A DNA stretch of 64,000 nt from an archaeon GW2011_AR19. Lineage in GTDB: Archaea > Nanobdellota > Nanobdellia > Pacearchaeales > GW2011-AR1. The notes below the pieces were generated by a model. The model ran no database searches and was not told the DNA's origin. It saw nothing but the letters and a program-made list of their open reading frames with translations. Position 1 is the stretch's first letter. Every line of letters starts with the position of its first letter. Location of the stretch: contig JWKY01000001.1 in assembly GCA_000806015.1 (NCBI GenBank), positions 43,569 through 107,568 of the forward strand, read 5' to 3'. The translations under genes and the position numbers were made by a program. Of this stretch, positions 5,954 through 49,195 are shown in pieces.

Positions 5954-5954
5954 T

Positions 5955-7481
5955 TTACCAGCTCATCAGAGATTTAATATATTTATAAAGCGCAATTTTT
6001 TCTATAGATTCTTTATTTCCTATTGTTTTTACTTTCAAAGCGCCAATAGCATTTCCAATAAAACCTACAATTTCCATAGGAACGTTTAAAGCTACGAGAG
6101 GGGAAGTTATAGAAAGAAAAGCATCTCCGGCGCCCATTGTATCAACAACATGGTTTGAAAAAGCAGGTATTTTTTTTATGCTGTTTGAAGAAAAAATTAT
6201 GCAGCCCTGAGAACCCCGAGTAACAAGAATTTTATCACAAGAAACTCTTTTTGCTGCAATTGGAAGAAGTTCCGAGATTTCATCTTTTTTATTTAGGCAC
6301 TCCAGACGCAATTCACGTTCATCAAGACAAATATAATCTGCTTTGGAATATTTGGAAATAACATTATAGCCCATATTTCCTGCGTTTACTTGAGTATTAA
6401 CTGCAAGAAATTTTGATTTTTTTGTAATTAAATCAATTAATTCATTATTTAACATTCCATGTCCAAAATCTGCAACAATAATTACATCATAATCCGGGAG
6501 TATTTCATCTAAATGAAGATATAATTCTTTTGCCTGATCGTAATCAAGGTGGTTATCATTAAATTCATAAAATTCTAAGAGTTTTCTAAAATCTGGAACT
6601 TCTTCAATAAATCTTCTTTTGACAATGGTTGGAGAATCTTTTTTATGATGAAAAAGTCTTTTTATTTTTTTATTTAAATTATCTTCAATAAAATTTTCTT
6701 GAATATCTCTCTCTCCCAGCAATGTAAAAAGAGCTACATTCTCGCAGAAATCCGCTAAATGATTTGCTATTGCGAGAGTGCCGCCGGCAAATTTTTCTGT
6801 ATTTAGATATTTTAGCGCAAGAATAGGTTCTTTGCCCGCTTTTCCTATAGATTTGCCATAGCAATATTCATCTATGATTGCTTCGCCAATAACTAATATT
6901 TTTAAATTTTTTATTTGCTCAAGATAGCCTATTACTTCTTTTTGGCTGTATTTTTTAGAAAGTTCAATAAGAAAATTTTCAGATTCTTTTGTAAAAATAT
7001 TCATGTAGCGATTGATAAGCGCTGAAGAGCTGAAAACTAAATCATCAGTAAATTTTAACTGCCCCCCAACTTCTTTTATCGCGTTTTCTTCTTCAATTAT
7101 GCCCCGAGAATAATCATTTTCAATATTTTTATATTCTATCCCTTTAACATAGAAATCTGGTTTGAGAAACTTCATAGTATTTACTGCAGTTGGCCATTTA
7201 TTTAGAGCAACATAATCAATGATATCAAGAGAAGCAAGCACTTCCATTCTGATATTTTGATGAAATATCGGGTTATGTGGTCCTTTTTTTACATATTCAT
7301 CAGGAGTTAAAGTAACAATAAGTATGTCTCCGTATTTTTTTGCTTGTTCAAAATGTCTAATATGGCCTATATGCAATAAATCAAAAACGCCATGGCAATA
7401 CACAATTTTTTTCCCTCCTGTTTTTAAATTTGAAATTATATTTTGTAACTCTTCCAAATTTACTAATTTGTTGTTTTTCAT
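5955..7481 (-). CDS. hldE: bifunctional heptose-1-phosphate adenylyltransferase / heptose-7-phosphate kinase (HldE/RfaE-like, domains in reversed order)
   Basis: The N-terminal is a cytidylyl/adenylyltransferase domain with an HxGH motif (VYCHGVFDLLHIGHIRHFEQAKKYGDILIV; KGPHNP). The C-terminal is a pfkB/ribokinase domain with the RfaE-domain-I-like start ILVIGEAIIDEYCYG and the DTxGAGD motif (VVDTMGAGDAF). Confidence 0.7.
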   Translation of the reverse strand: MKNNKLVNLEELQNIISNLKTGGKKIVYCHGVFDLLHIGHIRHFEQAKKYGDILIVTLTPDEYVKKGPHNPIFHQNIRMEVLASLDIIDYVALNKWPTAVNTMKFLKPDFYVKGIEYKNIENDYSRGIIEEENAIKEVGGQLKFTDDLVFSSSALINRYMNIFTKESENFLIELSKKYSQKEVIGYLEQIKNLKILVIGEAIIDEYCYGKSIGKAGKEPILALKYLNTEKFAGGTLAIANHLADFCENVALFTLLGERDIQENFIEDNLNKKIKRLFHHKKDSPTIVKRRFIEEVPDFRKLLEFYEFNDNHLDYDQAKELYLHLDEILPDYDVIIVADFGHGMLNNELIDLITKKSKFLAVNTQVNAGNMGYNVISKYSKADYICLDERELRLECLNKKDEISELLPIAAKRVSCDKILVTRGSQGCIIFSSNSIKKIPAFSNHVVDTMGAGDAFLSITSPLVALNVPMEIVGFIGNAIGALKVKTIGNKESIEKIALYKYIKSLMSW

Positions 7482-7530
7482 TTGGCAAATTTTCTGTTTG
7501 ACGAATGCGTCAAAAATTTTTGTTCTATTT

Positions 7531-8541: not shown

Positions 8542-8603
8542 AATTTTATGATTTTGTTTCGCATTTAAATATTTGTTGATGAATAATTATCTTTAATATT
8601 AAA

Positions 8604-9170
8604 TTATTTTTTTTCAAGATATTCTATCACTTTATGGCAAATCTGCAGATGAATGTCTTCAACAATTCTGTATTCTTTTTTAGCAGTTTTGACTAAAATA
8701 TAATCATCTAATATATCTTTGGCTTTACCTCCATCAAAGCCGAGCAATCCAAAAGTGTATGCGCCGAGAGTCTTTGCAGTTTTTATTGCCTTTAAAATGT
8801 TTGGAGAATTTCCGCTTGCGCTAATAACTATTTCTAATCCCCCTTTAGATAAATAATTTATTGATTGTTGCGAAAATACTTCATCGTAGGAAAGATCATT
8901 TCCATAAGCTGTTATTGCAGCCACATCATTTAAACTCATTGCTCTGAATCTTTTTTCATTAATTGAGTTTAAATTTTTGACGGTGCTTTTGTTTAAGTCT
9001 AAACTAAAATGAGAAGCTGTTGTTGAGCTTCCTCCATTTCCCATAATTAAAATTGGTTTGCGTTTATCGCGAGCTTTTTGAAGCAATAAAACCAGTTTTT
9101 CTATTTTGGCGTTATCAACAGTTTTTTTCGCATATTCAAATTTTGAATCATACTCTTTTAAGCAGTCCAT
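8604..9170 (-). CDS. gmhA: SIS-domain phosphoheptose isomerase (GmhA-like)
   Basis: ILIMGNGGSSTTASHFSLDL matches the GNGGSxxxAxHFxxEL sedoheptulose-7-P isomerase signature. 188 aa. Confidence 0.65.
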   Translation of the reverse strand: MDCLKEYDSKFEYAKKTVDNAKIEKLVLLLQKARDKRKPILIMGNGGSSTTASHFSLDLNKSTVKNLNSINEKRFRAMSLNDVAAITAYGNDLSYDEVFSQQSINYLSKGGLEIVISASGNSPNILKAIKTAKTLGAYTFGLLGFDGGKAKDILDDYILVKTAKKEYRIVEDIHLQICHKVIEYLEKK

Positions 9171-11613: not shown

Positions 11614-12043
11614 TTCATATAAAATGGAAAATTATAAAAAATCAGTCAATGCAATTTTAGTTAATTCTAAAAAACAAATTCTTCTTCACCTTAGAGATGA
11701 TAAGCCTGGAATACTTGCTCCAGGATGTTGGGCTTTTATTGGGGGAGGTGTTGAAGAAGGAGAAAGCGGACCGGATGCAATTAAACGGGAAGTAAAAGAG
11801 GAAATAAATTATTTAATAAATGATTTTCAATATTTGGATAAAATTTATTTTAGGAAATATAAAATGGATGTCTTAGTTTATATTGGAAAATTAGATGCGC
11901 GTGAGGATGAGATTAAACTTACTGAAGGCCAAGGCGTAAGATTTTTTTATCCAGATGAAATAAAAAAACTTAAAATGTCTAATCTTCTTAAGAAAATAAT
12001 TTTCAGAAATTTAGAGAAAATTATTTTTGCAGCAAATAATTAA
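11600..12043 (+). CDS. NUDIX hydrolase
   Basis: Nudix box GGGVEEGESGPDAIKREVKEEINY (GX5EX7REUXEEXGU). Confidence 0.8.
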   Translation: MLKANSYKMENYKKSVNAILVNSKKQILLHLRDDKPGILAPGCWAFIGGGVEEGESGPDAIKREVKEEINYLINDFQYLDKIYFRKYKMDVLVYIGKLDAREDEIKLTEGQGVRFFYPDEIKKLKMSNLLKKIIFRNLEKIIFAANN

Positions 12044-23828: not shown

Positions 23829-24263
23829 CTATTTCATTAGATATTTCTCGATGAATTTTTTATGGGCAGAATGTATATTTTTCGGCGGTTTTTTGAAAAA
23901 TTTTATTTCATCTGCCTGCCAGCTCCCCTTGATTTTTCCGGATTTTCTTTTTACCAAAAAAGCCAAACTAATAGGATGCCCAAATACTTCTTTTTTTTGT
24001 GGAAATTCTATCGCCCCTAAAAGTTTAACGATTTTTACATTTAAGTTGATTTCTTCTTTGGCAGTTCTTTTTACAGCTTGTTTCAATGTTTCATTAAAGA
24101 GAATACTGCCCCCTGGAAAATGCCACATTCCTTTTGAAGGGGGAATTAATCTCTTCGTCAATAATACGCCGTCTTTTGTTTTTAGAATTATTTCAACGCA
24201 TAATCTCGGAACTTGGTTATAAATGCAATTAAATTTTTTTTGAGAGAGTTTTTTTGGAACCAT
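23829..24263 (-). CDS. NUDIX hydrolase
   Basis: Nudix box GGSILFNETLKQAVKRTAKEEINL. Confidence 0.7.
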   Translation of the reverse strand: MVPKKLSQKKFNCIYNQVPRLCVEIILKTKDGVLLTKRLIPPSKGMWHFPGGSILFNETLKQAVKRTAKEEINLNVKIVKLLGAIEFPQKKEVFGHPISLAFLVKRKSGKIKGSWQADEIKFFKKPPKNIHSAHKKFIEKYLMK

Positions 24264-31570: not shown

Positions 31571-33772
31571 TTAAATACAAGCCCCATTTGAACATCCCTT
31601 TGGACAGGTATACCATTCTGAAACTGTAGTCGCATAGGTCACTCCAGATACAACATTAGAAACACAAGAATATTCTGCTAATGAGCCAGTGACGCTACTG
31701 CAGAAGTCCCAATTATCTGCAGAAATAGGAGTAGATGAACCAATTGGACCATAATAACTATTTCCCTTTACATTATAATTTTTTCCTCCATCAGAATCTG
31801 TGCACCAAGTTCCTTGATTAGTTTGATTAGTTGTTGTGTTATTTCCTGTTTGATTTCCAAGAGTTTGGTTATAAGTATAATTTCCCGGTAAAGTAATATT
31901 TGTCTGATTTAAAGTCAAATTCCCAGTTTGATTTCCTGGAAGAGTAAAATTTGTTATATTCAAAATTACGCCGGTCAAATTAGTTTGATTTTTAGGAGGA
32001 AGAGTATAATTAGTTTGATTTCCAAGAAGTCCGGAAATTTCAATTGGTTTAACCTTGACTACCAAAAAATTCCACCAGGGTTTTTCTGAACTGATAATCT
32101 TACCAGTTTCGCTGTCAATTTGCGCTTCTAATTTTAATTTAATTTTAAACAAACCTATTAATCTGCCGTCTTTATCTTCTTTAGCAATATAAACTGCTCT
32201 TAGATTGTCTCCTTCTCCAACTTCTTTTAATTCAATATTAAATCCTTTGCTTTTTAATTTTTCCAATGCTATTTCAGATGCTTCATCTGGCATAATTTTT
32301 ATTTCCCGTTCATTTCCATTAGATAATTGGGCTTTAAGTTTTATTTCGTCGTCTTCAAATTTTTCTAATATTTTTAGCTCAGATTTAATTTCATTTTCAT
32401 TAATTATAATCTTTCTCTCAAGCGTTGCGCTTCCATCTGCTTTAACTTCAGTTTTAATTTCAATTTTAACTTCTTCCCCATTTTTATTTATAAAAGTCCT
32501 TTTTTCTCTAACTACGCTTGAACCATCTTCATTAATTTCTGCATTAATTTTAATCTTAATTTCATTTCCTTTTTTATCTGTAATTTTTTTAACTTCTTCT
32601 ATGAATTTTATATTCTCTTTAATTTCTTCTTTAATGCTGATTGTTTCTTCAAAAACTCCTAATGAAGAACTGCTCCCACTGCTTCCTCCTCCACCTGATA
32701 CTGTTCCTGCAGAAGCAGTTGTTGTGCTTGTTGTAGAAATAGTTGGAATTGTAGTTGTGGTGGATGAAGTTGTTGCATTTGTTTGATTAGTTGTTGTATT
32801 ATTCCTAGTTTGATTTGTTGTAGTTGAAACGCAAGCCCCATCAGAACATCCATTTGGACAAGTATAAATTTCAGCATCTGGTCCGCAAAAAAGTTCTACT
32901 ACAGCTGTTCCATCGCCATTGCAATAGTCTGAATAAGTGTAAGAACCATAAGTCCTAGCTCCTTTTACATTATAGTTTTTTCCCCCGTCGCTGTCTGTGC
33001 ATGTTGTTTGATTTGTCGTCGTAGTTGAAACACAGGCGCCATTAGAGCATCCATTTGGACAAGAATAATATTCTGAAGATATTCCATTAACAATAGCAAA
33101 GCCGTTAACAATGCAAAAATATTCTGCTACACTTTGACCATTGCAGTAATCTACATGATTTGGAGAATTTGAAGAGATAGTATTTCCTTTTATATAATAA
33201 TCCTTTCCCCCGTCGCTATCAGAACAAGAAATTCCTGTTTGATTAGTTGTATTTGTTGCAGCAGAAACACAAGCCCCATTTGAGCATCCGTTTGGACAAG
33301 TGTAAGTTTCTCCGCTTTGTTGTTTATCAGCAGTGCAGAAATATTCTACTAATGAATTTGAGCTGCTGCACAAATCTGTAACATCTATAGAAGATGTTGG
33401 CGAATTCGCAACAACATTTCCTTTAGTTGAATATGCTTTTCCTCCGTCGCTATCTGCGCAAGTAAAGGTGTTTGAAACACAAGCGCCAGCAACACAAGTT
33501 TCACCTGATGAGCAGGAGATTACAGAACTAAACTCTAAACAAGAATCAGAATCATAATTCCCGCAAGTTTTATAGCCGTCGCCAGAACATTGTTTTGCCC
33601 CGTTAGACGAGCAATCATCAGAACAGGTCAGATTTGTTGTATCATTTTCAGTAGTTTTTCCAGTTAATTTTTTCCAAAAATCTCCAAACCATGTTGCAGA
33701 CACAAATCCTATTGACATAATTAAAGTAATTAATATTAAAGAAATTAAAACAATTACTAAACTCTTTTTCAT
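31571..33772 (-). CDS. secreted modular surface protein: signal peptide, four Cys-rich ~65-aa modules, Thr-rich linker, beta-rich K/E repeats, dense N-glycosylation sequon cassette
   Basis: N-terminal MKKSLVIVLISLILITLIMSIGFVSA is a signal peptide. Four modules follow the pattern C.DSDGGK.Y..KG...C...E(Y/L).C...Y(T/S)CP(N/K)GCS(N/D)GAC. A TTTNQT...SGGGGSSGSSSS linker is present. About 16 N-x-T sequons lie in aa 583-655 (nt 31808..32026). Confidence 0.7.
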   Translation of the reverse strand: MKKSLVIVLISLILITLIMSIGFVSATWFGDFWKKLTGKTTENDTTNLTCSDDCSSNGAKQCSGDGYKTCGNYDSDSCLEFSSVISCSSGETCVAGACVSNTFTCADSDGGKAYSTKGNVVANSPTSSIDVTDLCSSSNSLVEYFCTADKQQSGETYTCPNGCSNGACVSAATNTTNQTGISCSDSDGGKDYYIKGNTISSNSPNHVDYCNGQSVAEYFCIVNGFAIVNGISSEYYSCPNGCSNGACVSTTTTNQTTCTDSDGGKNYNVKGARTYGSYTYSDYCNGDGTAVVELFCGPDAEIYTCPNGCSDGACVSTTTNQTRNNTTTNQTNATTSSTTTTIPTISTTSTTTASAGTVSGGGGSSGSSSSLGVFEETISIKEEIKENIKFIEEVKKITDKKGNEIKIKINAEINEDGSSVVREKRTFINKNGEEVKIEIKTEVKADGSATLERKIIINENEIKSELKILEKFEDDEIKLKAQLSNGNEREIKIMPDEASEIALEKLKSKGFNIELKEVGEGDNLRAVYIAKEDKDGRLIGLFKIKLKLEAQIDSETGKIISSEKPWWNFLVVKVKPIEISGLLGNQTNYTLPPKNQTNLTGVILNITNFTLPGNQTGNLTLNQTNITLPGNYTYNQTLGNQTGNNTTTNQTNQGTWCTDSDGGKNYNVKGNSYYGPIGSSTPISADNWDFCSSVTGSLAEYSCVSNVVSGVTYATTVSEWYTCPKGCSNGACI

Positions 33773-33866: not shown

Positions 33867-35072
33867 ATGAAAATACTTGAAGTATGCCCATATTCAGCAG
33901 GCATTTGCGGAGTTTGGACAAGAGTTTTGGAAGAATCTAAAAGATTAAGTAAACGGGGTTTTGAAATAAAAATTTTTTCTTCAAATGCTGTTAAAGGTTC
34001 AAATGAAATTGCTCCTTCACACGAAAAATTAGGCCCCAAAGGGGTCTCCTCTGGAGTAAAAATAGAAATTTTAAGATTTCCTTTTAAAAAATTAGGCGGT
34101 GAAAGTTTTATGTCTTGGGATTTTGAAAAAGAAGCGTTGAATTATTCGCCAGACATCATAATTGCTCACAATTATAGACATTTGCATACAACAAAATGTC
34201 TTAAAATTGCAGAAAAATTAAAAGGAGAAAACAAAAAATGCAAAGTTTTTCTTGTAACTCATGCTCCCTTTGAAAGAAAATTAACAAGAACTTTTTTGCA
34301 AAACTTAATTGTTAAAATTTATGATTTATTTATTGGAAGAAAAACAATTAATAAGTTTGATAAAATTTTGGCAATAACCAAATGGGAGATGCCTTATTTG
34401 CTAAAATTAGGAGCAAAAAAAGAAAAAATTATTTATATTCCTAATGGCATTTCTCCTGAATTTTTTAGTCTGAAAAAGCAAGCAAAAAAAGAACAAAAAA
34501 CAGGAAATTTTTTGACAAACTCGCCCAAGCGTGGTCGAGTTAAAGAAGAAAATAAGATATTATTTTTAGGCCGTATTTCTCCGATTAAAAATTTGGAAGT
34601 ATTAATTAAAGCAATGGATTTCGTTAAAAACAAGAAGATTTTATTGGAGATTGTGGGCCCCCCAGAAAAAAATTATTTTATAAAATTAAAAAATTTAATT
34701 AAAAAACTTGGACTAAATGATAAAATAAAATTTTCTTTACCAATCTATAATCTAAAAGAAAAGATAGCTAAAATAGATTCTTGCCAAATATTTGTCTTGC
34801 CAAGTAAAATGGAAGGCATGCCCCAATCTTTAATAGAAGTAATGGCAAGAGAAAAAATTGTAATTGGAAGCAATAGCTTGGCAATAAGGGATTTAATCGA
34901 GAATGGAGAAAATGGATTTTTATTTGAATTTAATGACCCAAAAGATTTAGCAAAAAAAATTGATGAAGCGCTTTCACAAAAAAATTTAGAAATAAAAAAA
35001 CAGGCAAGAAAAAGTGTTGAACATTTTTCCTGGAACAAAGTAATTAAAAAAATAGTGGGAGTTATACAATGA
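33867..35072 (+). CDS. family 4 (GT-B) glycosyltransferase
   Basis: C-terminal EX7E region EGMPQSLIEVMAREKIVIGSN...NGENGFLF. Confidence 0.75.
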   Translation: MKILEVCPYSAGICGVWTRVLEESKRLSKRGFEIKIFSSNAVKGSNEIAPSHEKLGPKGVSSGVKIEILRFPFKKLGGESFMSWDFEKEALNYSPDIIIAHNYRHLHTTKCLKIAEKLKGENKKCKVFLVTHAPFERKLTRTFLQNLIVKIYDLFIGRKTINKFDKILAITKWEMPYLLKLGAKKEKIIYIPNGISPEFFSLKKQAKKEQKTGNFLTNSPKRGRVKEENKILFLGRISPIKNLEVLIKAMDFVKNKKILLEIVGPPEKNYFIKLKNLIKKLGLNDKIKFSLPIYNLKEKIAKIDSCQIFVLPSKMEGMPQSLIEVMAREKIVIGSNSLAIRDLIENGENGFLFEFNDPKDLAKKIDEALSQKNLEIKKQARKSVEHFSWNKVIKKIVGVIQ

Positions 35073-36955
35073 AAATTCTAATAATTAAAACGGGTGCTTT
35101 AGGAGATGTCTTAAGAACAAGTTTTTTAGCTCAGGCTTTAAAAGATAAATATAAAAAAACAAATTCAAAAATATTTTGGTTAACTTCGCAACAATCTTCG
35201 CAATTTTTTATTAATAATCCATATATAAATGAGCTGATTATTTCAGGAGAAAGAGATAATTTAAAAAAAATAAAATTTGATTTAGTTATAAATTTAGAGG
35301 AATCCAAAGAGGATGCCAGATTTACTTCTTTATTAAAACCAAAAAAAATAATTGGTGTTTTTTTAAATAAAAACGGAGAAATAGAATATACTCAAGAGAC
35401 TTCTTATTGGTTTGATATGTCTATGATAAGCAGATTAGGAAAAGAAAAAGCAGATATTTTAAAAAATAAAAATAAAAAAACTCATCGACAGATTATGTCA
35501 GAAATTATTGGAATGGATTGGAGAAAATATGAACCTTTTTTAAGATTAACAGACGCTCAAAGAAAAATGGCGCAAGAATTTTCAAACAAACATCATCTTT
35601 CAAAAAGTGATTTAATAATTGGAATCAACACGGGCGCTGCAGACAGATGGCCTAAAGAACTTTCAATAAAAAAAACTATTGAGATAATTGAAAATCTTTA
35701 TAAAAAGTATAATACAAAAATTTTGCTATTTGGGGGGCCAAATGAGATTAAAAGAAACAAAGAGATTATTAAATTAGCAGAATCTCCAATAATAGATACT
35801 GGTTGCGGAAATAATCTCGTTGAATTTCCAGCGTTAGTAAGTGTTTGCAATATAGTTATAACGACTGATAGTTTGGGGCTGCATGTTGCTTTGGCATTAA
35901 AAAGAAAAACAATTTGTTTAATCGGTCCGACATCTTCTTCGGAAATAGATTTGTATAATTTAGGAGAAAAAATAATAGCCAAATCAAAAGATGTTTGTTC
36001 TTATAAAACAGAAACAGATTGCATGGATAAAATAGATTTAAATGAAATTAAAACAGCAATAGATAAAATTTTAAAACAAAAAATAACTTTGCTGATAACT
36101 GCATTTAAAGAGCCAAAGACAATTATAAAAGCGGTTGAAGGCGCTTTGGCCCAAAAAACATCAAGGAAATATGAAATTGTTGTTTCTGCTCCAGATAATG
36201 AAACTTTAGATGCAATAAAAAAGCATAAAAATTTAAAAATTTTTAAAGATCCTGGAAAAGGAAAAAGTTACGCATTAAATTTAATTTTTGAAAAATTAAA
36301 AACAGATATTTTGATTTTGACGGACGGGGATGTTTTTATTTCGGATAATGTTGTTGAAAACTTTGCAAATTTATTTTTAGATTCAGAAATTGGATGCGCA
36401 ACCGGGAGACCTATTCCTATAGAGAACAAAAAAACCAAATATGGTTTTTGGGCAAATTTTTTATTTGACTCTGCTCACAGATTAAGGAAGAAAGCATTTC
36501 AGCAAAATAAATTTTTAGAGTGTTCAGGATATCTATTTGCTTTTAGAAAAGAATTTATCCGTAAAATTCCTTTAGATGTGGCTGAAGATACTCTTATTCC
36601 ATATTTATTTTGGCAAAAAGGATATAAAATTGGTTATTCTGAAAATTCACGAGTTTATGTTAAAAATGTTGATAATTTTAGAGATTGGATTAACCAAAAG
36701 ATTAGAACTTCTAAGGCGCATGAAACTTTATATAAATATGTTGATATTAAAACAACTCCGAGGATAAAAACTTTTAAAACAGAAGCAAAAGGATTTTTTT
36801 CTCTTTTTAGCTACCCTGAAAATTTCCAGCAATTTTGGTGGTCAAGTTTGCTCGCTTTATCAAGATTTTATATGTGGATGAAAGTTTTTTATGACACAAA
36901 ATTTAAGAAAAAACATTATCAAGATGCTTGGAAGAGAGTTGAAAGCGCGAAATAA
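35069..36955 (+). CDS. fusion protein: N-terminal GT9 heptosyltransferase-like domain + C-terminal GT2 domain
   Basis: The N-terminus MKILIIKTGALGDVLRTSFLAQALKDKYKK...IFWLT matches the RfaC/RfaF (GT9) signature MKILIIR..LGDV..T.P...LK. From ~aa 330, ITLLITAFKEPKTIIKAVEGALAQ...ILILTDGDVFIS is a GT-A (GT2) domain. Confidence 0.6.
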   Translation: MKILIIKTGALGDVLRTSFLAQALKDKYKKTNSKIFWLTSQQSSQFFINNPYINELIISGERDNLKKIKFDLVINLEESKEDARFTSLLKPKKIIGVFLNKNGEIEYTQETSYWFDMSMISRLGKEKADILKNKNKKTHRQIMSEIIGMDWRKYEPFLRLTDAQRKMAQEFSNKHHLSKSDLIIGINTGAADRWPKELSIKKTIEIIENLYKKYNTKILLFGGPNEIKRNKEIIKLAESPIIDTGCGNNLVEFPALVSVCNIVITTDSLGLHVALALKRKTICLIGPTSSSEIDLYNLGEKIIAKSKDVCSYKTETDCMDKIDLNEIKTAIDKILKQKITLLITAFKEPKTIIKAVEGALAQKTSRKYEIVVSAPDNETLDAIKKHKNLKIFKDPGKGKSYALNLIFEKLKTDILILTDGDVFISDNVVENFANLFLDSEIGCATGRPIPIENKKTKYGFWANFLFDSAHRLRKKAFQQNKFLECSGYLFAFRKEFIRKIPLDVAEDTLIPYLFWQKGYKIGYSENSRVYVKNVDNFRDWINQKIRTSKAHETLYKYVDIKTTPRIKTFKTEAKGFFSLFSYPENFQQFWWSSLLALSRFYMWMKVFYDTKFKKKHYQDAWKRVESAK

Positions 36956-37000: not shown

Positions 37001-38668
37001 ATGGAAATTTTATATAAAGAGCTAACCCCTGATCATTTTAATAAAAAAGAAAATTTTGGACAAAATTTTTTAAATTGGTTTAAAGATTCGTATAATTTAA
37101 CATTTTTAGGAATATTGCTTCTTGCTATTGTGATAAGAATTTATTATTTTATTTTAACTGCCAATCAGCCTTTATGGTGGGATGAAGCAGATTATCTTGC
37201 TTATGCAAAAAATATTGCAAACTTAGGAGGGGACTGGATTGTAACTGCCCAGCATAATTCACTTTATCCATTTATCGTCGCCGGATTATTTTTGCTGGGA
37301 TTGGGAGAACCGGCAGTTAAATTTTTCATTCAGATAATACCTTCTATTTTATCTGTTTGGTTAGTTTATGCAATTTGCAATGAAATATATGATGATAAAA
37401 GGATAGGCCTGATAGCTTCATTTTTAATGACTACTTTATGGGTTGTTTTATTTAATTCAATGAGATTTCATGTAGATATTCCCGGAATGTTTTTTGGTTT
37501 ACTTGCGCTTTATGTTTTTTGGAGAGGTTATGAAAATAAAAAGAAAATTTTTGGAAAAATAAATTCTAATTTGGCAATTCCTCTTGCAGTCTTTTTTGCA
37601 GTTTTAGCATATTCTATAAGAAGAGCTTATTTTCTTTTTGCAGTTTTTATTTTAGTTTATGTTTTATTGACAACTAAAGATTGGAAAAAATTAATTAAAG
37701 ATAAATATAACTGGATTGGAATTGTATTTGGAGTTTTCTTATTTTTCTTAGTTGAAAAATTTATATTTTTTTCAGGAATAACTGAAGTAGGATCAACCTA
37801 TTATCATCCAGAAAATCCCATTAGTCTCGGAGCATTAAAAGTATTTAGCTCATTTTTTTCTTTTGGAAGTTTGTTTAAAAATATTTATTTTTATTTATTT
37901 TTAATTGGAATAATTTTTATTTTTATTAATCTGCTTATTTATTTAGGACACATAAAAAAAGAGAAAAATAAAAAAGTAAGAGGAGATTTATTTGCCGTTA
38001 TCCTCGTTATTTTTACATTAGCTAATTTTATTTTTATTCTTAGGACTTTTGGAGAGGAAAGATGGTATTTGCCGTTGGCTCTTGGAGCGTTTATTGCAGT
38101 TTCTCAAGGAATTTTATTAATTGGAGATTCTATTAAAAAATATAGTAAAATCATTGGGATAATTTTTATAATTTTGTTAATTGCACTTGGAGGATATTAT
38201 CAGGTCAAAAACGCGGAGGGAATCATAAAAAATAAAATTCCAAGTTTTGAAGGAATCAAAGAGGCAGGTTTATTTTTGAAACAAATCTCTAATCCCGACG
38301 ATATTATTGTTAGCGTTCCAATCCCACAACCAATATATTATTCAGGAAGAAAAGTTATGAACCCTGCAGGCATTTTGAATAAAACAAGCAATCAGGATGT
38401 TAGTTTTGAAGAATTTTTATTAAAGTTGAGTGAAAATACTAAAATAAAATATATTATTGTTACATTTTCAGAACCGGGTCATCCAAATTGGATGCAGCAG
38501 CAATCATCAAATTTTTGGAGCATTCCGTTTATGGATACTGCTATAGATTTTACAAACAATAAACAAGACATAAAACAAGAAAAGACTTATGGAAATATAA
38601 CTTTTAAATTAATTGCATTAAAACAAGATGCTTTTGTTTACGAGATTATAAGAAAGCAAGATTTTTAA
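37001..38668 (+). CDS. GT-C fold membrane glycosyltransferase (ArnT/PMT, GT39/GT83-like)
   Basis: More than 10 TM helices. The first-loop acidic motif LWWDEADYLAYAKNI is typical of the ArnT/PMT_2 family. There is a C-terminal soluble domain. Confidence 0.55.
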   Translation: MEILYKELTPDHFNKKENFGQNFLNWFKDSYNLTFLGILLLAIVIRIYYFILTANQPLWWDEADYLAYAKNIANLGGDWIVTAQHNSLYPFIVAGLFLLGLGEPAVKFFIQIIPSILSVWLVYAICNEIYDDKRIGLIASFLMTTLWVVLFNSMRFHVDIPGMFFGLLALYVFWRGYENKKKIFGKINSNLAIPLAVFFAVLAYSIRRAYFLFAVFILVYVLLTTKDWKKLIKDKYNWIGIVFGVFLFFLVEKFIFFSGITEVGSTYYHPENPISLGALKVFSSFFSFGSLFKNIYFYLFLIGIIFIFINLLIYLGHIKKEKNKKVRGDLFAVILVIFTLANFIFILRTFGEERWYLPLALGAFIAVSQGILLIGDSIKKYSKIIGIIFIILLIALGGYYQVKNAEGIIKNKIPSFEGIKEAGLFLKQISNPDDIIVSVPIPQPIYYSGRKVMNPAGILNKTSNQDVSFEEFLLKLSENTKIKYIIVTFSEPGHPNWMQQQSSNFWSIPFMDTAIDFTNNKQDIKQEKTYGNITFKLIALKQDAFVYEIIRKQDF

Positions 38669-46441: not shown

Positions 46442-49195
46442 TTACAATTCCCAACTTAAATATTTTGAAGAATCTCTGTCAAGGTATTCTTGTTTTTTTT
46501 CCTCGTTTCCAGTATATTTAATTTCCCAGATTTTTATAGGCCCCTGAATTCCCTGATAATAAACAAATTCATTTAAATTTACACCTTGTTTTTTTAGCTC
46601 GCTGACTATTAAATTATCTTCTGAATGAACTAATTTAAAGTTTAAGAATTTGTTAAAAGGATCATTTAATAAATATTTTTGGGCAAAATATCCCCTCATA
46701 ACCCGAGGAGAAATATAAATCATGCTTCCAAAATCATCCATCTTGACCTGTCCGTTAACAACCTCTATTTTTTGAATTATCTTTATAGTCCCTTCTAATC
46801 CGCTTCCAAAATCAACAAATTTATTATTATATTCTAAATATCTTAAAGGAAGATTATATTGCTGGCCATTATAAACAAAAACTCCTGTTGGCTGAATAAA
46901 ACTCAGGCTTTCATTATTTTGAGAACTCTGGAGGATTACCCCCCCGATTCCTGCTGCTCCAGACGGCAGGAAAATTTCTGAATTATTTAAATTGTAAATT
47001 ATATCTTCATCTAATCCAACTCCCCCGCTATAAACTCTCATCATTCCAGAACTTGTTTCTCTGCTTTGGCTTTTGTCGAAATGAATTGTTGGAATAAAAG
47101 ATAATCGATCATAATTCTCGCTGCTGCCAATGCTTGAAAACGCCCCGTATTTTCCAATATCTGAAGAATCTATTAATAAATAATTTGCATCATGGCTATA
47201 TAAAAATTCTAAAGCATCTTTTTGATTATCGCCAGTCAAGACTAATCTTCCAGTTAAGTAATTCCACCAGACAACCATGTTTCCACCGTCTGTAACTGTC
47301 GCTCTCTCTCCTATTGATTGAAGCCAGTAACCATAATCCCACCAGTGCGCAAAAACACTATTTTGAGGGGTTTCATCTCTGACCCATTTCATTGCTTTTT
47401 GCCATTGTTGATTATAAGCAGATGGAACAGCATTATATGCCTGGGATTTAATTTCTTTATAATATGAAATAAATATAAATATTGTCAAGACAATTAAAAT
47501 TATTGCAATAATTCCTAAAAATAATCTTTTTTCTTCTTTTGAATTTTTAAATGAGAAAATTGACTGGTCAATTAAATATCCAACGAATATTGGAACAATT
47601 GGTCCGAGAATCATAACTAATCTTACAGCACTTCTGGCGCTGAATAATGCAAGAACTAATAAAGACAACAAAAGCAGAGAGCTATATTCTATTTTTTCAA
47701 AACCTTTGTGTTTTTCTTTTTGATATTTAACATAATAATAAATAAAAAATCCGACTAAAAGAGCAATTGATAAAAGAAAAAAAGTTTTGCTTATGAAATT
47801 TTCTCCATTAAACATGCTTGAGGGAGAATATCTTGAAAACATTAATCCAGATAAAAATAAAACAAATAAACCAGTTAGTATCCATGAATCTTTTTTCTTA
47901 ATTTCATTTAACATTTTTTTAAAGAAAACTATTGAGCCAATAAAAAATAACCAGAACATTATTGGAATCGCTTTAATGAATGGTCCGAAACTTCCAACCC
48001 ATTCAGTAAAATAAGGCTGTTTATTTTCTGCAACTGTCTGATTCCATCTTCCTGTTACAGGTTTAAAAAGAGTATTGTTAATCTGTTTTATTTTGTCGGA
48101 TAGCATTGAAGGATTTATAATAAGAGCGATTATTAAAAGCGCTAAAACCAGAACCAAAATTGAAATTATATTTTTTGGAAGATTTATTTTCTTTAAAAAT
48201 TTATTTTCAGAAATTTTTGTATTCCATAGTAGAAGGTGCAAAAATAATAGCATTAGTAAAATAAATGTGGCACTGTTTATCAAGGAAGATGAAATAAAAC
48301 TAACATGGCCTTTTCCAGGAAGAAGAGATAAAAACAATCTTGCAGAAATCCACCATGAAGAATAAACAATTATTTCTTTCTTTTTAAATTTGTTTAAAAT
48401 AAATGCAGTAAAACTCGCGGCAAAAGTTGCCCAATATAAATAAGCAGATAATCCAGATACTAATGCCATACCTGCAGTCGCAGCTCCTGCTAAAATTCCG
48501 TAAATTAAAGCATGTTTTATTTTTTCAGATTTCCAGGCTTTTAAAAATAAAAATAACGCAAGAAATAAAAAGAAAAACATTGCAGATTCTTTTTCTGGAA
48601 TGCCTGCAACTGTCCTTGATAATAAAATTGGAATTACAATCATTAAAAATGTAGAAATTAAAGAAATTATGTTTGCGCGAATTTTGCTTAATTTAGACTC
48701 TCTTGCAAAAAGTTCTCTTACAAATAAGAAAAAAACGATTATTGTCAGCGCAAAAATGATTACAGGAAATAGCGCTGCTCCAAATTCAACATTCGCCTGC
48801 GGATAAAAAATCTTTGAGAGTTTGTAAGCCAAGGCAACCATATACGGGAGCAAAACTGTTTCTTCTGATGTTTTAAATCCAAGAGGAACATTTCTCATTG
48901 TGTCTATCTCTGGAATTGACCCTTCATTTACAATTAATTTTGCCATTCTTGTAAATAGCCAGGGATCTAAATCAGGTCCGAGCGTCCAAGTATTTGTTGC
49001 AACATCCCAAAGTCCGGGATTTCCGCCATGATCTGACATAGGCAAACTTCTAATATATATTCCAAGAATTAAAGCAATTATTAAGAGACCAATCACCCAA
49101 ACTTCCGGCTTTTTAAGAAAATTTATTATTTTGTCTTTTCTTATTTTAATTAATTCATCTTCGCTATTTGATTTATTTTCGGCTAAACTTTCCAT
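46442..49195 (-). CDS. aglB: oligosaccharyltransferase AglB (STT3 family)
   Basis: 917 aa with about 13 N-terminal TM helices plus a C-terminal soluble domain. The hallmark WWDYGYW motif is at aa 618-624 (nt 47324..47344). An acidic first-loop motif is present (GPDLDPW). Confidence 0.9.
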   Translation of the reverse strand: MESLAENKSNSEDELIKIRKDKIINFLKKPEVWVIGLLIIALILGIYIRSLPMSDHGGNPGLWDVATNTWTLGPDLDPWLFTRMAKLIVNEGSIPEIDTMRNVPLGFKTSEETVLLPYMVALAYKLSKIFYPQANVEFGAALFPVIIFALTIIVFFLFVRELFARESKLSKIRANIISLISTFLMIVIPILLSRTVAGIPEKESAMFFFLFLALFLFLKAWKSEKIKHALIYGILAGAATAGMALVSGLSAYLYWATFAASFTAFILNKFKKKEIIVYSSWWISARLFLSLLPGKGHVSFISSSLINSATFILLMLLFLHLLLWNTKISENKFLKKINLPKNIISILVLVLALLIIALIINPSMLSDKIKQINNTLFKPVTGRWNQTVAENKQPYFTEWVGSFGPFIKAIPIMFWLFFIGSIVFFKKMLNEIKKKDSWILTGLFVLFLSGLMFSRYSPSSMFNGENFISKTFFLLSIALLVGFFIYYYVKYQKEKHKGFEKIEYSSLLLLSLLVLALFSARSAVRLVMILGPIVPIFVGYLIDQSIFSFKNSKEEKRLFLGIIAIILIVLTIFIFISYYKEIKSQAYNAVPSAYNQQWQKAMKWVRDETPQNSVFAHWWDYGYWLQSIGERATVTDGGNMVVWWNYLTGRLVLTGDNQKDALEFLYSHDANYLLIDSSDIGKYGAFSSIGSSENYDRLSFIPTIHFDKSQSRETSSGMMRVYSGGVGLDEDIIYNLNNSEIFLPSGAAGIGGVILQSSQNNESLSFIQPTGVFVYNGQQYNLPLRYLEYNNKFVDFGSGLEGTIKIIQKIEVVNGQVKMDDFGSMIYISPRVMRGYFAQKYLLNDPFNKFLNFKLVHSEDNLIVSELKKQGVNLNEFVYYQGIQGPIKIWEIKYTGNEEKKQEYLDRDSSKYLSWEL

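What the first reader, a model, noticed from the sequence alone, without database searches (positions are those of the whole stretch)
35069..36955. GT9 heptosyltransferase-like domain fused to a GT2 domain in one 628-aa protein
The N-terminal 330 aa carry the RfaC/RfaF-type signature (MKILIIKTGALGDVLRTSFLAQALK). The C-terminal ~300 aa are a GT-A fold GT2 domain (ILILTDGDVFIS). This would be a two-headed enzyme adding heptose plus a second sugar. GT9 is otherwise an LPS-core family of Gram-negative bacteria. Its presence in an archaeal Agl island, together with HldE/GmhA, suggests horizontally acquired heptosylation.
Basis: partly seen in the sequence, partly recalled or inferred. Interest (0 to 1): 0.6.

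Follow-up and report, generated by a model that had tools for sequence, protein, structure and literature searches.

The report
Archaeal two-domain heptosyltransferase-like glycosyltransferase fusion
This is a real gene, conserved across tiny DPANN archaea, that fuses a bacterial-LPS-type "heptosyltransferase" domain to a second sugar-adding domain, and it is the best current candidate for what archaea do with the heptose sugar nucleotides they are known to make.

Summary
ORF 35069-36955 (+) encodes one uninterrupted 628-aa protein with an N-terminal GT9 (GT-B) domain and a C-terminal GT2 (GT-A) domain. Both pass Pfam's curated cut-offs. It is not an assembly artefact: 75 independent full-length fused ORFs (51-85% identity) keep a fixed-length junction and invariant catalytic residues in both halves, and the AlphaFold model is one rigid body (pLDDT 95, pTM 0.92).

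The window is archaeon GW2011_AR19, where the protein is already deposited as "heptosyltransferase II". The fused family is confined to Pacearchaeota/Woesearchaeota-type DPANN archaea.

Two further results:
- GT2, GT9 and a polytopic PMT_2-type GT-C enzyme travel together in two gene arrangements, fused (GT9-GT2) and split (GT2...GT9).
- When genes are inserted between the fusion and its GT-C partner, they are HldE/GmhB-type heptose-activation genes in 14 of 22 loci. They are never another nucleotide-sugar gene class.

This supports a heptose donor for the GT9 half. The GT2 half is closest to PcManGT and hyaluronan synthase but has no transmembrane helices.

The "recent bacterial LPS gene" reading is not supported. 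All LPS heptosyltransferase equivalog models fail, and archaeal GT9s form several deep clades interleaved with bacterial ones.

Verdict: a new variant of known kinds, biochemically untested, of moderate interest.

The parts
35069..36955 (+). Fused GT9-GT2 glycosyltransferase gene (628 aa)
   Evidence: One ORF. It is 100% identical to P0001, 'heptosyltransferase II [archaeon GW2011_AR19]'. 75 uninterrupted full-length homologues were recovered. The AF2 model has pLDDT 95.3 and pTM 0.92.
35069..36070 (+). GT9 (GT-B fold) domain, residues 1-334. Key residues: D13 (35105-35107), K196 (35654-35656), E226, D267 (35867-35869), H272, G286-P-T288.
   Evidence: PF01075 scores 49.9 bits against a cut-off of 22. 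Foldseek finds 3tov at E 2e-16 (TMt 0.74), plus WaaF 1psw and WaaC 2h1h. The profile alignment puts K196 on WaaC K192, D267 on D261 and D13 on D13. These residues are 100% conserved in 74 sequences.
36080..36952 (+). GT2 (GT-A fold, synthase-like/PcManGT-like) domain, residues 338-628. Key residues: D376, D419-G-D421 (36323-36331), E506-D507 (36584-36589), Q543-K-x-R546-T547 (36695-36709).
   Evidence: PF00535 scores 52.3 bits, PF13641 48.9, PF13632 31.6 and PF13506 25.5, all above their cut-offs. The profile's best PDB match is PcManGT 6yv7 at E 4e-14. Foldseek finds hyaluronan synthases at E ~1e-12, plus Chs1, BcsA and PcManGT. D507 aligns with the PcManGT general base D223 (PMC12595478).
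36824..36904 (+). C-terminal long amphipathic helix (residues 586-612) with an invariant W591/L595/R599/W603 face; probably a membrane-interface or acceptor-binding helix, not a TM span
   Evidence: DSSP on the model gives helix 586-612. Mean KD hydropathy is 0.15, and no 19-residue window in the whole protein reaches 1.6.
33867..35072 (+). Upstream GT4-family (GT-B, retaining) glycosyltransferase; its stop overlaps the fusion's start codon (ATGA), implying one operon
   Evidence: Pfam Glycos_transf_1 scores 122.5 bits and Glyco_transf_4 53.8 bits. The best NCBIfam hit is Agl16, below its cut-off. The 4-nt overlap is seen in the sequence. A homologue lies immediately upstream in 32 of 64 loci.
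37001..38668 (+). Downstream polytopic GT-C glycosyltransferase (PMT_2 / ArnT-PMT-like), 45 nt after the fusion's stop
   Evidence: PF13231 scores 39 bits (cut-off 26.1) and PF02366 27.4 bits. About 10-11 hydrophobic segments are present. A homologue lies on the same strand within 5 kb downstream in 49 of 63 loci. It also follows the split GT2/GT9 pair in L042 and L164-166.
5955..7481 (-). HldE-like bifunctional nucleotidyltransferase (N-terminal) plus PfkB sugar kinase (C-terminal), in reversed domain order: candidate NDP-heptose synthesis
   Evidence: Pfam finds CTP_transf_like at 28-136 and PfkB at 193-493. The best NCBIfam hits are HldE, rfaE_dom_I and rfaE_dom_II, all below their cut-offs.
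8604..9170 (-). GmhA-like SIS-domain sedoheptulose-7-P isomerase candidate
   Evidence: PF13580 SIS_2. The best NCBIfam hit is gmhA TIGR00441 at 99 bits, below its cut-off of 209.
46442..49195 (-). AglB/STT3 oligosaccharyltransferase of the same island (context)
   Evidence: PF02516 STT3 and PF21436 STT3-PglB core. AglB lies within 10 kb of the fusion in 8 of 24 long loci.

Best explanation
The gene encodes a genuine bifunctional, peripheral-membrane glycosyltransferase that is conserved in Pacearchaeota/Woesearchaeota-type DPANN archaea.

Shown:
- The N-terminal half is a GT9-family GT-B domain. It keeps the HepI-type catalytic Asp (D13) and the donor-binding Lys and Asp (K196, D267).
- The C-terminal half is an inverting GT2 GT-A domain of the synthase-like/PcManGT type. 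It has a DxD motif, a general-base Asp (D507) and a Q-x-x-R motif.
- The two domains are joined without a linker, and the protein has no transmembrane helix.

Inferred mechanism:
1. The enzyme sits at the cytoplasmic face of the membrane.
2. It adds two sugars to a lipid-linked (most likely dolichyl-phosphate-linked) glycan.
3. One sugar is a heptose taken from an NDP-heptose by the GT9 domain.
4. The other is a beta-linked hexose or HexNAc taken from a UDP/GDP-sugar by the GT2 domain.

The enzyme works as the centre of a conserved three-gene module. The GT4 gene upstream appears translationally coupled to it. The PMT_2-type GT-C gene downstream probably acts on the outer face of the membrane. 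Together they would build a conserved heptose-containing part of a cell-surface glycoconjugate inside an otherwise variable AglB glycosylation island.
For: Architecture and integrity:
- A single ORF, with both Pfam domains above their cut-offs.
- More than 120 fused clusters at 60-85% identity.
- 75 uninterrupted fused ORFs with D13, K196, D267, H272, D419, D421, D507, Q543 and R546 100% conserved.
- AF2 pLDDT 95.3 and pTM 0.92.

Fold and family:
- GT9 half: 3tov, WaaF and WaaC by Foldseek and by profile.
- GT2 half: PcManGT at E 4e-14 by profile, and hyaluronan, chitin and cellulose synthases by Foldseek.

Functional partnership of the two halves:
- Stand-alone GT2 and GT9 genes lie side by side in the order GT2...GT9 in L033, L042 and L164-166. 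Each time a PMT_2 GT-C follows.
- The same three activities therefore co-occur in two different arrangements.

GT-C and GT4 partners:
- GT-C lies within 5 kb downstream in 49 of 63 loci.
- GT4 lies immediately upstream in 32 of 64 loci.

Heptose donor:
- L042 carries GmhA-like, GmhB (186.5 bits, above the cut-off of 178) and full-length HldE (435 bits) between GT9 and GT-C.
- L121 and L167 have kinase, nucleotidyltransferase and phosphatase genes flanking the fusion.
- In 22 loci with an insert between the fusion and GT-C, the insert is HldE-type in 14. It is never an SDR, DegT or Rml gene.
- The window itself has HldE-like and GmhA-like genes in the same island.
- Archaeal NDP-heptose enzymes have been shown to be functional, with no known use (Tang et al. 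2024, as summarised in PMC11461863).

Peripheral location:
- No hydrophobic TM segment is present, and both halves carry a net basic charge.
Against: - No biochemical data exist for any member. Donor and acceptor are inferred only from homology and gene neighbourhood.
- Heptose genes lie within 2.5 kb in only 11 of 41 loci and within 10 kb in 10 of 24. Three split-form loci (L164-166) show none within 7 kb.
- In the window the HldE-like and GmhA-like genes are 26-29 kb away, are divergent (below equivalog cut-offs), and no GmhB homologue was found.
- An attempt to show genome-level co-occurrence was inconclusive.
- GT9 fold and catalytic residues do not by themselves fix the donor sugar.
- The GT2 half lacks the W of QxxRW and lacks the TM helices of its closest structural relatives. 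Its acceptor (sugar hydroxyl or lipid phosphate) is therefore open.
- Heptose has not, to my knowledge, been reported in any archaeal glycan.
Confidence: 0.5

Rival explanations
1. Same bifunctional enzyme, but the GT9 domain uses a non-heptose nucleotide sugar. The nearby heptose genes would serve another transferase of the island.
For: - All heptosyltransferase equivalog HMMs score far below their cut-offs.
- Most fused loci have no heptose gene within 2.5 kb (30 of 41).
- Some loci contain additional GT9 genes that could be the heptose users (L167).
- From my own knowledge of CAZy, GT9 is listed with at least one non-heptose activity.
Against: - HldE-type genes are the dominant and only nucleotide-sugar insert inside the fusion-GT-C operon (14 of 22).
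- A complete GmhA/GmhB/HldE set lies directly between GT9 and GT-C in L042.
- The HepI donor-contact residues K192, E222 and D261 have invariant counterparts.
Confidence: 0.25
2. The two domains do not act consecutively on one acceptor. The GT2 half is a polyprenyl-phosphate-sugar synthase (like AglD, DPMS or GtrB) that makes the lipid-linked donor for the adjacent GT-C. The GT9 half separately heptosylates another lipid-linked glycan.
For: - The GT2 gene or domain and the PMT_2 GT-C are almost always neighbours.
- From my own knowledge, PMT_2 enzymes characteristically use polyprenyl-P-monosaccharide donors. Haloferax AglD/AglS and the ArnC/ArnT and GtrB/GtrC systems are precedents.
- The best PDB profile hit, PcManGT, is reported as dolichyl-phosphate-dependent (my recollection of the original paper).
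- DPMS, ArnC and GtrB are also hit over the nucleotide-binding part.
- A faint GtrA-like gene follows the GT-C in L165.
Against: - The GT2 half keeps an invariant general-base Asp (D507) and a Q-x-x-R motif. These are typical of enzymes that deprotonate a hydroxyl acceptor (PMC12595478).
- It lacks the C-terminal TM helices of DPMS, GtrB, ArnC and PcManGT.
- Similarity to DPMS, ArnC and GtrB stops at about residue 110 of the domain.
Confidence: 0.2
3. One reading: a bacterial LPS inner-core heptosyltransferase (RfaC/RfaF type) recently captured by this archaeon through horizontal transfer.
For: - The N-terminal motif MKILIIKTGALGD resembles that of WaaC and WaaF.
- GT9 is predominantly bacterial.
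- Archaeal and bacterial sequences are interleaved in the tree. The closest bacterial neighbours of the fused clade are Endomicrobia, Omnitrophota and Ratteibacteria at 31-39% identity.
Against: - The equivalog models for HepI, HepII, HepIII and RfaQ/F/C all fail.
- The fused family is old and widespread within DPANN (51-85% identity; more than 120 clusters).
- There are at least three separate archaeal GT9 clades.
- GC content of the gene region (27-28%) matches the rest of the window.
- From my own knowledge, archaea have no Kdo-lipid A acceptor.
Confidence: 0.07
4. Direct protein heptosylation: the GT9 half modifies Ser/Thr of a surface protein, as the bacterial autotransporter heptosyltransferases TibC/AAH do.
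For: - Heptose-using protein glycosyltransferases exist in bacteria (PMC4358343).
- A stand-alone relative in Woesearchaeota lies next to a 1620-aa Ig-domain surface protein (L027).
Against: - The GT9 profile gives no TibC match in the PDB at E<0.01.
- A cytoplasmic peripheral enzyme fused to a synthase-like GT2 and followed by a GT-C and flippase/AglB genes points to lipid-linked assembly.
Confidence: 0.04
5. Artefact: two adjacent genes joined by mis-assembly or a missed stop or frameshift.
For: None found. Split versions exist elsewhere, but in the opposite gene order (GT2 then GT9) and with an intervening gene on the other strand.
Against: - 75 independently assembled uninterrupted fused ORFs from many samples.
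- A conserved, fixed-length junction.
- A high-confidence single-body model with pTM 0.92.
Confidence: 0.01

Closest known systems
E. coli LPS heptosyltransferases WaaC (HepI, PDB 2h1h/6dfe) and WaaF (HepII, 1psw), CAZy GT9
   Same: - Same GT-B fold (Foldseek E 1e-14 to 2e-11, TM on target 0.65-0.71).
- Same N-terminal G-D catalytic loop (D13).
- Same donor-contact Lys, Glu and Asp by alignment (K196, E226, D267).
- Presumably also a peripheral membrane enzyme acting on a lipid-anchored glycan with an ADP-heptose-type donor.
   Different: - Only 15-18% identity. All NCBIfam equivalog models fail.
- No Kdo2-lipid A acceptor exists in archaea.
- Fused to a GT2 domain.
- Partnered with a GT-C and lying in an AglB island rather than a waa cluster.
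GT9 protein of Veillonella parvula (PDB 3tov; structural-genomics entry, function unknown)
   Same: Best sequence and structure match of the N-half: phmmer 1e-13, profile 8e-29, Foldseek 2e-16 with TMt 0.74.
   Different: Stand-alone and bacterial, about 20% identity, and uncharacterised, so it adds no functional information.
PcManGT (Pcal_0472) of Pyrobaculum calidifontis, PDB 6yv7-9: archaeal GT2 mannosyltransferase with a minimal cellulose-synthase-like fold
   Same: - Best profile match of the C-half (E 4e-14, residues 2-191 of the domain).
- Shared DxD motif and general-base Asp (D223 = D507).
- Archaeal, and located in a glycosylation gene cluster.
   Different: - PcManGT has transmembrane helices; this domain has none.
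- PcManGT is a single-domain protein.
- The donor here is unknown.
Processive membrane GT2 synthases (hyaluronan synthase 7sp7/8smn, chitin synthase 8k3u, BcsA 4p00)
   Same: - Best Foldseek matches of the C-half (E 1e-12 to 1e-8).
- Same D, DxD, (E/T)ED and QxxR motif series.
   Different: - No membrane channel.
- The W of QxxRW is replaced by an invariant T.
- Too small to be a polymer-translocating synthase, so probably a single-addition enzyme.
Two-domain bifunctional glycosyltransferases such as E. coli K4 chondroitin polymerase (2z86) and Pasteurella heparosan synthase (8vh7)
   Same: One polypeptide carries two complete catalytic GT domains that add two different sugars. Both appear among the hits.
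   Different: Those are polymerases that alternate two sugars, using GT-A+GT-A (or related) pairs. Here a GT-B (GT9) is joined to a GT-A (GT2), and nothing suggests polymerisation.
Polyprenyl-phosphate-sugar three-component systems (ArnC/ArnT, GtrB/GtrA/GtrC, Haloferax AglD/AglR/AglS)
   Same: A GT2 enzyme is genetically coupled to a PMT_2/GT-C enzyme. A faint GtrA-like gene lies next to the GT-C in L165.
   Different: The GT2 half lacks TM helices, keeps a general base and is fused or paired with a GT9. Comparison with these systems rests on my own knowledge, not on a test here.

Membership tests
CAZy GT9 / Pfam PF01075 (glycosyltransferase family 9) | Profile match above the curated threshold | tested here: met
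   PF01075 scores 49.9 bits against a cut-off of 22, over residues 64-315.
CAZy GT9 / Pfam PF01075 (glycosyltransferase family 9) | GT-B two-Rossmann fold superposable on solved GT9 structures | tested here: met
   The AF2 model has pLDDT 95. Foldseek finds 3tov at E 2e-16 (TMt 0.74), 1psw at TMt 0.71 and 2h1h at TMt 0.67.
CAZy GT9 / Pfam PF01075 (glycosyltransferase family 9) | Catalytic Asp in the N-terminal G-D loop, and donor-binding Lys and Asp (WaaC D13, K192, D261) | tested here: met
   D13, K196 and D267 align to these residues. They are invariant in 74 fused sequences.
CAZy GT9 / Pfam PF01075 (glycosyltransferase family 9) | Uses ADP-(L-glycero-D-manno)-heptose as donor | not testable with these tools
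   Only indirect evidence: HldE/GmhA/GmhB genes lie adjacent in L042, L121, L167, L011 and others, and form the insert in 14 of 22 loci.
LPS heptosyltransferase I/II/III (WaaC/WaaF/WaaQ equivalogs) | Score at or above the NCBIfam equivalog cut-off | tested here: not met
   TIGR02195 scores 51.1 against 134.6. TIGR02193 scores 37.1 against 185.3. TIGR02201 scores 35.1 against 170.2. The PRK models score at most 34 against at least 437.
LPS heptosyltransferase I/II/III (WaaC/WaaF/WaaQ equivalogs) | Kdo2-lipid A / LPS core acceptor and a waa/LPS gene context | tested here: not met
   The context is an archaeal AglB island with SecY/Sec61 and archaeal ribosomal proteins. No LPS genes are present in the window.
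CAZy GT2 / Pfam PF00535, synthase-like subgroup PF13641/PF13632 | Profile matches above the curated thresholds | tested here: met
   PF00535 scores 52.3 (cut-off 23.3), PF13641 48.9 (cut-off 27), PF13632 31.6 (cut-off 27) and PF13506 25.5 (cut-off 21.7).
CAZy GT2 / Pfam PF00535, synthase-like subgroup PF13641/PF13632 | DxD metal/diphosphate motif and general-base Asp | tested here: met
   D419-G-D421 and E506-D507 are invariant. D507 aligns with the PcManGT general base D223.
Processive membrane-embedded GT2 synthases (HAS, CHS, BcsA, PgaC) | Q-x-x-R-W motif | tested here: inconclusive
   Q543-K-x-R546 is invariant, but W is replaced by T547 in 71 of 74 sequences.
Processive membrane-embedded GT2 synthases (HAS, CHS, BcsA, PgaC) | Transmembrane helices forming a translocation channel | tested here: not met
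   No 19-residue window reaches KD 1.6, and the C-terminal helix is amphipathic. The PgaC equivalog scores 48 against 422.
Bacterial autotransporter heptosyltransferases (TibC/AAH, BAHT) | Detectable homology to TibC | tested here: not met
   The GT9 profile against PDB sequences returns only 3tov, WaaF and WaaC at E<0.01.
Polyprenyl-phosphate sugar synthases (DPMS/GtrB/ArnC type GT2) | Full-length similarity plus C-terminal TM helices | tested here: not met
   Matches to 5mlz, 9hwj and 5ekp cover only domain residues 2-116. No TM helices are present.

The most novel reading that the evidence does not exclude
DPANN archaea (Pacearchaeota/Woesearchaeota) build a conserved, heptose-containing 'inner-core-like' glycan on a lipid carrier. 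They use a dedicated GT4 / GT9-GT2 / GT-C module fed by their own NDP-heptose pathway. This would be the first identified consumer of archaeal NDP-heptose and the first heptosylated archaeal glycoconjugate. The PMT_2-type GT-C would deliver the glycan to a surface protein or lipid outside the AglB route, which could be the so far unidentified archaeal O-glycosylation or lipoglycan pathway.
Probability: 0.3. Interest if true: 0.7.

Novelty: new variant of a known kind. Interest (0 to 1): 0.5.

Why it matters
Functional NDP-heptose biosynthetic enzymes were recently shown to exist in archaea. What the sugar nucleotide is used for there was left open (Tang et al. 2024, as summarised in PMC11461863).

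This conserved GT9-GT2 enzyme is repeatedly wired to HldE/GmhA/GmhB genes and to a GT-C transferase. It is therefore a concrete, clonable candidate for the missing heptose-consuming step.

It also marks a strongly conserved core (51-85% identity) inside otherwise hypervariable DPANN glycosylation islands. This suggests an LPS-inner-core-like logic (conserved core, variable periphery) in the envelopes of ultrasmall, host-dependent archaea, whose surfaces mediate cell-cell attachment.

The fused and split versions give Rosetta-stone evidence that a GT9, a PcManGT-like GT2 and a PMT_2 GT-C act in one pathway.

The claim is limited. Both domain families are known, the protein is already in databases as 'heptosyltransferase II', and nothing has been tested biochemically.

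Tried and rejected
1. Mis-assembly or missed stop. Rejected: 75 uninterrupted fused ORFs and a conserved junction.

2. My first W-anchored hand alignment suggested that HepI K192 was replaced by Asp192. The profile alignment to WaaC, WaaF and 3tov instead puts the invariant K196 on K192, so the 'lost lysine' idea was dropped.

3. Genome-level co-occurrence of the fusion with heptose genes. I matched the contig lengths of HldE-like clusters against those of the fusion-bearing contigs and found no overlaps. The window's reversed-order NT-kinase protein belongs to a large separate family, and only the top 120 hits are listed. The result is inconclusive, not negative.

4. Identifying a bacterial donor lineage. 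The genome-contig scan plus an NJ tree show three archaeal clades next to different bacterial groups: Endomicrobia/Omnitrophota/Ratteibacteria; Planctomycetota; Deltaproteobacteria/Elusimicrobiota/Acidobacteriota. The tree is distance-based, midpoint-rooted and has no support values, so no donor is named.

It was repeated with 8 sequences (A3).

6. The C-half alone against PDB sequences gave nothing significant. A profile was needed.

7. The GT-C partner against PDB sequences gave no hit.

8. BAHT/TibC-like protein heptosylation. No homology was detected.

9. The one 'Patescibacteria'-labelled fused homologue (P0042, L167) and a 'Methanobacterium' one (L012) lie on short MAG contigs without taxon-diagnostic genes. 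They are treated as probable binning labels, not as evidence that the fusion occurs outside DPANN.

10. Literature searches for an archaeal GT9, a GT9-GT2 fusion or heptose in Pacearchaeota found nothing relevant.

11. The taxonomy look-up of 'archaeon GW2011_AR19' failed.

Full report
OBSERVATION

- Pfam places Glyco_transf_9 on residues 64-315 (49.9 bits; cut-off 22).
- Pfam places Glycos_transf_2 on residues 341-499 (52.3 bits; cut-off 23.3).
- Three related GT2 models also pass their cut-offs: PF13641 (338-547), PF13632 and PF13506.

The refutation criterion 'N-terminal domain below threshold for GT9' is therefore not met.

The window's other genes show an archaeon: SecY with a Sec61-type plug, L5e/L18, aIF-2B and an EMC3/TMCO1-like protein. 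GC content is about 29% throughout. Positions ~1,000-50,000 form one large glycosylation island. It holds DegT aminotransferases, SDR epimerases, radical-SAM enzymes, methyltransferases, many GT2 genes, a flippase, a GT4-family phosphosugar transferase and AglB/STT3.

The protein is 100% identical to a deposited sequence named 'heptosyltransferase II [archaeon GW2011_AR19]'.

IS THE FUSION REAL?

Yes.
- More than 120 protein clusters share the architecture at 60-85% identity. All are 625-642 aa and named Pacearchaeota, Nanoarchaeota, Woesearchaeota or 'archaeon'.
- From genome and metagenome loci I recovered 75 independently assembled ORFs that span residues <=5 to >=620 in one frame, at 51-85% identity. 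The junction (residues 325-345) differs by at most two alignment columns.
- There is no linker. The last helix of the GT9 C-domain runs directly into the first strand of the GT-A domain.
- The AlphaFold2 model built on 102 sequences has mean pLDDT 95.3 and pTM 0.92, so the two domains are predicted as one rigid body.

THE GT9 HALF
- By sequence, the best solved relative is the uncharacterised GT9 protein 3tov, followed by WaaF and WaaC (profile E-values 8e-29, 2e-19 and 5e-11).
- By structure the order is the same (Foldseek E 2e-16 to 2e-11; TM on target 0.65-0.74).
- WaaC's catalytic D13 corresponds to D13. The profile alignment puts the subfamily's invariant Lys (K196, in RWPKELS) on WaaC K192. 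D267 falls on D261 and E226 on E222. D13, K196 and D267 are 100% conserved in 74 fused sequences; E226 is conserved in 73 of 74.
- All NCBIfam equivalog models for LPS heptosyltransferases I, II, III and RfaQ/F/C score far below their cut-offs (best 51 bits against 134.6).

The domain is thus a bona fide GT9 member with an intact active site, but it does not belong to any LPS-core orthologous group.

THE GT2 HALF
- Single-sequence search of the PDB finds nothing significant.
- A profile of 39 C-halves and stand-alone relatives finds PcManGT of Pyrobaculum calidifontis as the best hit (6yv7, E 4e-14, domain residues 2-191).
- Foldseek ranks hyaluronan synthases first (E ~1e-12), then chitin synthase, cellulose synthase and PcManGT.
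- The motif series of that group is present and invariant: D376, D419-G-D421, E506-D507, Q543-K-x-R546. T547 stands where the synthases have Trp.
- D507 aligns with PcManGT Asp223, the general base of inverting GT-A enzymes (PMC12595478).
- Unlike all these relatives, the protein has no transmembrane segment. No 19-residue window reaches a Kyte-Doolittle mean of 1.6. The long C-terminal helix 586-612 is amphipathic, with an invariant W591/L595/R599/W603 face.
- Both halves are net basic.

I infer a peripheral, cytoplasmic-face enzyme that adds single sugars rather than a polymer synthase.

PARTNERS

In the window the upstream GT4-family gene (33867-35072) overlaps the fusion's start by 4 nt (ATGA). 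A polytopic PMT_2-type GT-C gene (37001-38668) starts 45 nt after its stop.

Across the fused loci collected:

| Partner | Position relative to the fusion | Loci |
|---|---|---|
| GT-C homologue | same strand, within 5 kb downstream | 49 of 63 |
| GT-C homologue | directly adjacent downstream | 28 of 63 |
| GT4 homologue | directly upstream | 32 of 64 |
| AglB | within 10 kb | 8 of 24 |

At the 50%-identity level most relatives are stand-alone. There are ~335-aa GT9 proteins and ~300-aa GT2 proteins, each covering exactly one half. The stand-alone GT2 family is itself large and conserved in Nanoarchaeota/Pacearchaeota (1160 hits). Its genes sit in a fixed arrangement:
1. GT2.
2. A nucleoside-deoxyribosyltransferase-like gene on the opposite strand.
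3. GT9.
4. Variable inserts.
5. PMT_2 GT-C.

This arrangement is seen in L033 (steps 1-3 only), L042 and L164-166. The same three activities therefore co-occur in two different gene orders, fused GT9-GT2 and split GT2...GT9. This is strong Rosetta-stone evidence for one pathway.

The GT9 module is also found fused to NUDIX (L166) and to methyltransferases (P0133, P0142).

DONOR OF THE GT9 HALF

- L042: between the split GT9 and the GT-C lie a GmhA-like SIS protein, a GSU2086-family protein, GmhB (186.5 bits, above the NCBIfam cut-off of 178) and a full-length kinase-adenylyltransferase HldE (435 bits).
- L011: the fusion is followed by HldE and then GT-C.
- L121: HldE, GmhB and GmhA flank the fusion.
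- L167: the order is fusion, HAD phosphatase, PfkB kinase, nucleotidyltransferase, GT-C.

As a control for 'everything is nearby in a glycosylation island', I classified every ORF lying between the fusion and a GT-C 300-5000 bp downstream, in 22 loci:

| Insert class | Loci (of 22) |
|---|---|
| HldE-type kinase / nucleotidyltransferase / phosphatase | 14 |
| B12-radical-SAM | 5 |
| SDR, DegT, RmlC/D or other GT genes | 0 |

Overall, heptose genes lie within 2.5 kb in 11 of 41 loci and within 10 kb in 10 of 24. The association is therefore specific but far from universal.

In the window itself the candidate pathway is 26-29 kb away, on the minus strand:
- GmhA-like gene, 8604-9170.
- An SDR gene, 7531-8541.
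- An HldE-like gene with reversed domain order, 5955-7481.
- An SDR gene, 4955-5953.

These genes are divergent, and no GmhB homologue was found. An attempt to show genome-wide co-occurrence by matching contig lengths was uninformative.

MECHANISM (shown versus inferred)

Shown:
- Two intact catalytic domains in one conserved polypeptide.
- Family and fold assignments.
- Absence of TM helices.
- Conserved partnership with GT4 and GT-C genes.
- Recurrent linkage to heptose-activation genes.

Inferred:
- The enzyme acts at the cytoplasmic membrane face on a dolichyl-phosphate-linked glycan.
- It adds a heptose through the GT9 domain and a beta-linked hexose or HexNAc through the GT2 domain.
- The GT4 enzyme adds a further sugar.
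- After flipping, the GT-C enzyme either transfers or further decorates the product.

The high conservation of this module inside a hypervariable island suggests it makes a conserved core, analogous in logic to the LPS inner core.

The main alternatives are a non-heptose donor for GT9, and a GT2 half that makes a polyprenyl-phosphate sugar for the GT-C (AglD/AglS-like or ArnC/ArnT-like) rather than extending the same acceptor. The conserved general base and the missing TM helices argue against the second, but do not exclude it.

ORIGIN
- A scan of one genome per species with stand-alone GT9 relatives returned Woesearchaeota/Nanoarchaeia first (42-47% identity to the window's N-half).
- Next came Planctomycetota, anammox bacteria, Omnitrophota, Elusimicrobiota and Nitrospirota (30-40%).
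- Last came Bacteroidota (25-30%).
- A rough neighbour-joining tree gives three separate archaeal clades, each beside different bacterial groups: fused, split-partner, and a third stand-alone clade that lacks GT2/GT-C neighbours. The third clade lies next to a 1620-aa Ig-domain surface protein in L027.
- The tree is unsupported and midpoint-rooted. It is compatible with old inter-domain transfers but names no donor.
- Nothing indicates a recent acquisition in this genome.
- Kuenenia, whose S-layer carries oligo-heptose O-glycans (bioRxiv 10.1101/2020.12.03.409086), also has a GT9 of this broad subfamily (L023). Heptose on surface proteins rather than LPS therefore has a precedent.

NOVELTY AND VERDICT

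Both domain families are well known, and the protein is already deposited with a homology-based name. No paper in the searchable library describes an archaeal GT9, a GT9-GT2 fusion or heptose in these archaea.

Functional NDP-heptose enzymes in archaea have been demonstrated, with their purpose left open (PMC11461863). This module is a concrete candidate answer.

I rate it a new variant of a known kind, with interest 0.5. The architecture is certain. The heptose donor is more likely than not. The acceptor and the role of the GT-C remain hypotheses.

Noticed in passing
window 4955-9170 (-): Four consecutive genes: a GmhA-like SIS gene (8604-9170), an SDR (7531-8541), an HldE-like protein with reversed domain order (nucleotidyltransferase N-terminal, PfkB kinase C-terminal; 5955-7481) and an SDR (4955-5953). 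This looks like a pathway for a modified (epimerised or deoxy) NDP-heptose. The reversed-order protein belongs to a large family (5943 hits at E<1e-10) that also carries names from Methanocellales, Chloroflexi and Omnitrophota. No GmhB homologue is present in the window.
   Followed up: partly
window 27157-29466 (+): A 769-aa protein fuses an SDR epimerase/dehydratase domain to a sugar C-methyltransferase (Methyltransf_13/23/14). It is another fused enzyme of the island. A stand-alone C-methyltransferase of the same type lies at 38722-39966 (-).
   Followed up: no
window 35990-36025 (residues 308-319 of the fusion): Most fused family members carry a four-Cys cluster (C-x-C-C-Y-K-x-x-C-K-S-M) at the end of the GT9 domain. 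The window's sub-clade keeps only two Cys (DVCSYKTETDCM). This may be a metal site that has been lost in this lineage.
   Followed up: no
L166 8348-9742; proteins P0133, P0142: GT9 modules of this subfamily are also fused to a NUDIX hydrolase domain (L166) and to SAM methyltransferase domains (P0133 C-terminal, P0142 N-terminal). A separate NUDIX gene follows the GT9 in L165, and two NUDIX genes lie in the window (11600-12043, 23829-24263).
   Followed up: partly
L042 7549-8460; also L147, L162: A GSU2086-family protein (NF052581, 386 bits; function unknown) sits inside the heptose gene set, between the GmhA-like gene and GmhB. It recurs next to the kinase and nucleotidyltransferase genes in two fused loci.
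   Followed up: no
L139, L144, L147, L158, L162, L164, L167 (next to the fusion or the split GT9): A ~500-620-aa B12-binding radical-SAM gene is the second most frequent insert between the fusion and the GT-C (5 of 22 loci). It also neighbours the split GT9 and may methylate the sugar. The window has two such genes, at 18100-19401 and 19557-20897.
   Followed up: partly
L042 5392-5793 (-); L164 7898-8314 (-); L165 7988-8398 (-); L166 7889-8311 (-); L033 5427-5837 (-): In the split arrangement a ~135-aa gene always lies on the opposite strand between GT2 and GT9. Pfam identifies it as nucleoside 2-deoxyribosyltransferase-like in L042 and L164-166. The ORF at the same position in L033 was not scanned. 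A QueC gene lies just upstream of the GT2 in L164-166. The reason for this conserved arrangement is unknown.
   Followed up: no
L027 4195-11854: The closest stand-alone GT9 clade (Woesearchaeota, 44% identity) has no GT2-half, GT-C or heptose gene nearby. It lies beside a 1620-aa protein with He_PIG/Big_9 Ig-like domains and two ~540-aa proteins, one of which matches DUF6541.
   Followed up: partly
window 31571-33772 (-): A 733-aa ORF without any Pfam match, transcribed divergently from the GT4-fusion-GT-C operon.
   Followed up: no
window 12239-13948 (+): A NodU/CmcH-type carbamoyltransferase inside the glycosylation island, suggesting carbamoylated sugars.
   Followed up: no
L167 9231-10292 (-): A second, stand-alone GT9 gene and a second cytidylyltransferase-like gene lie immediately after the GT-C in a fused locus. 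Some genomes therefore carry two GT9 enzymes in the module.
   Followed up: no
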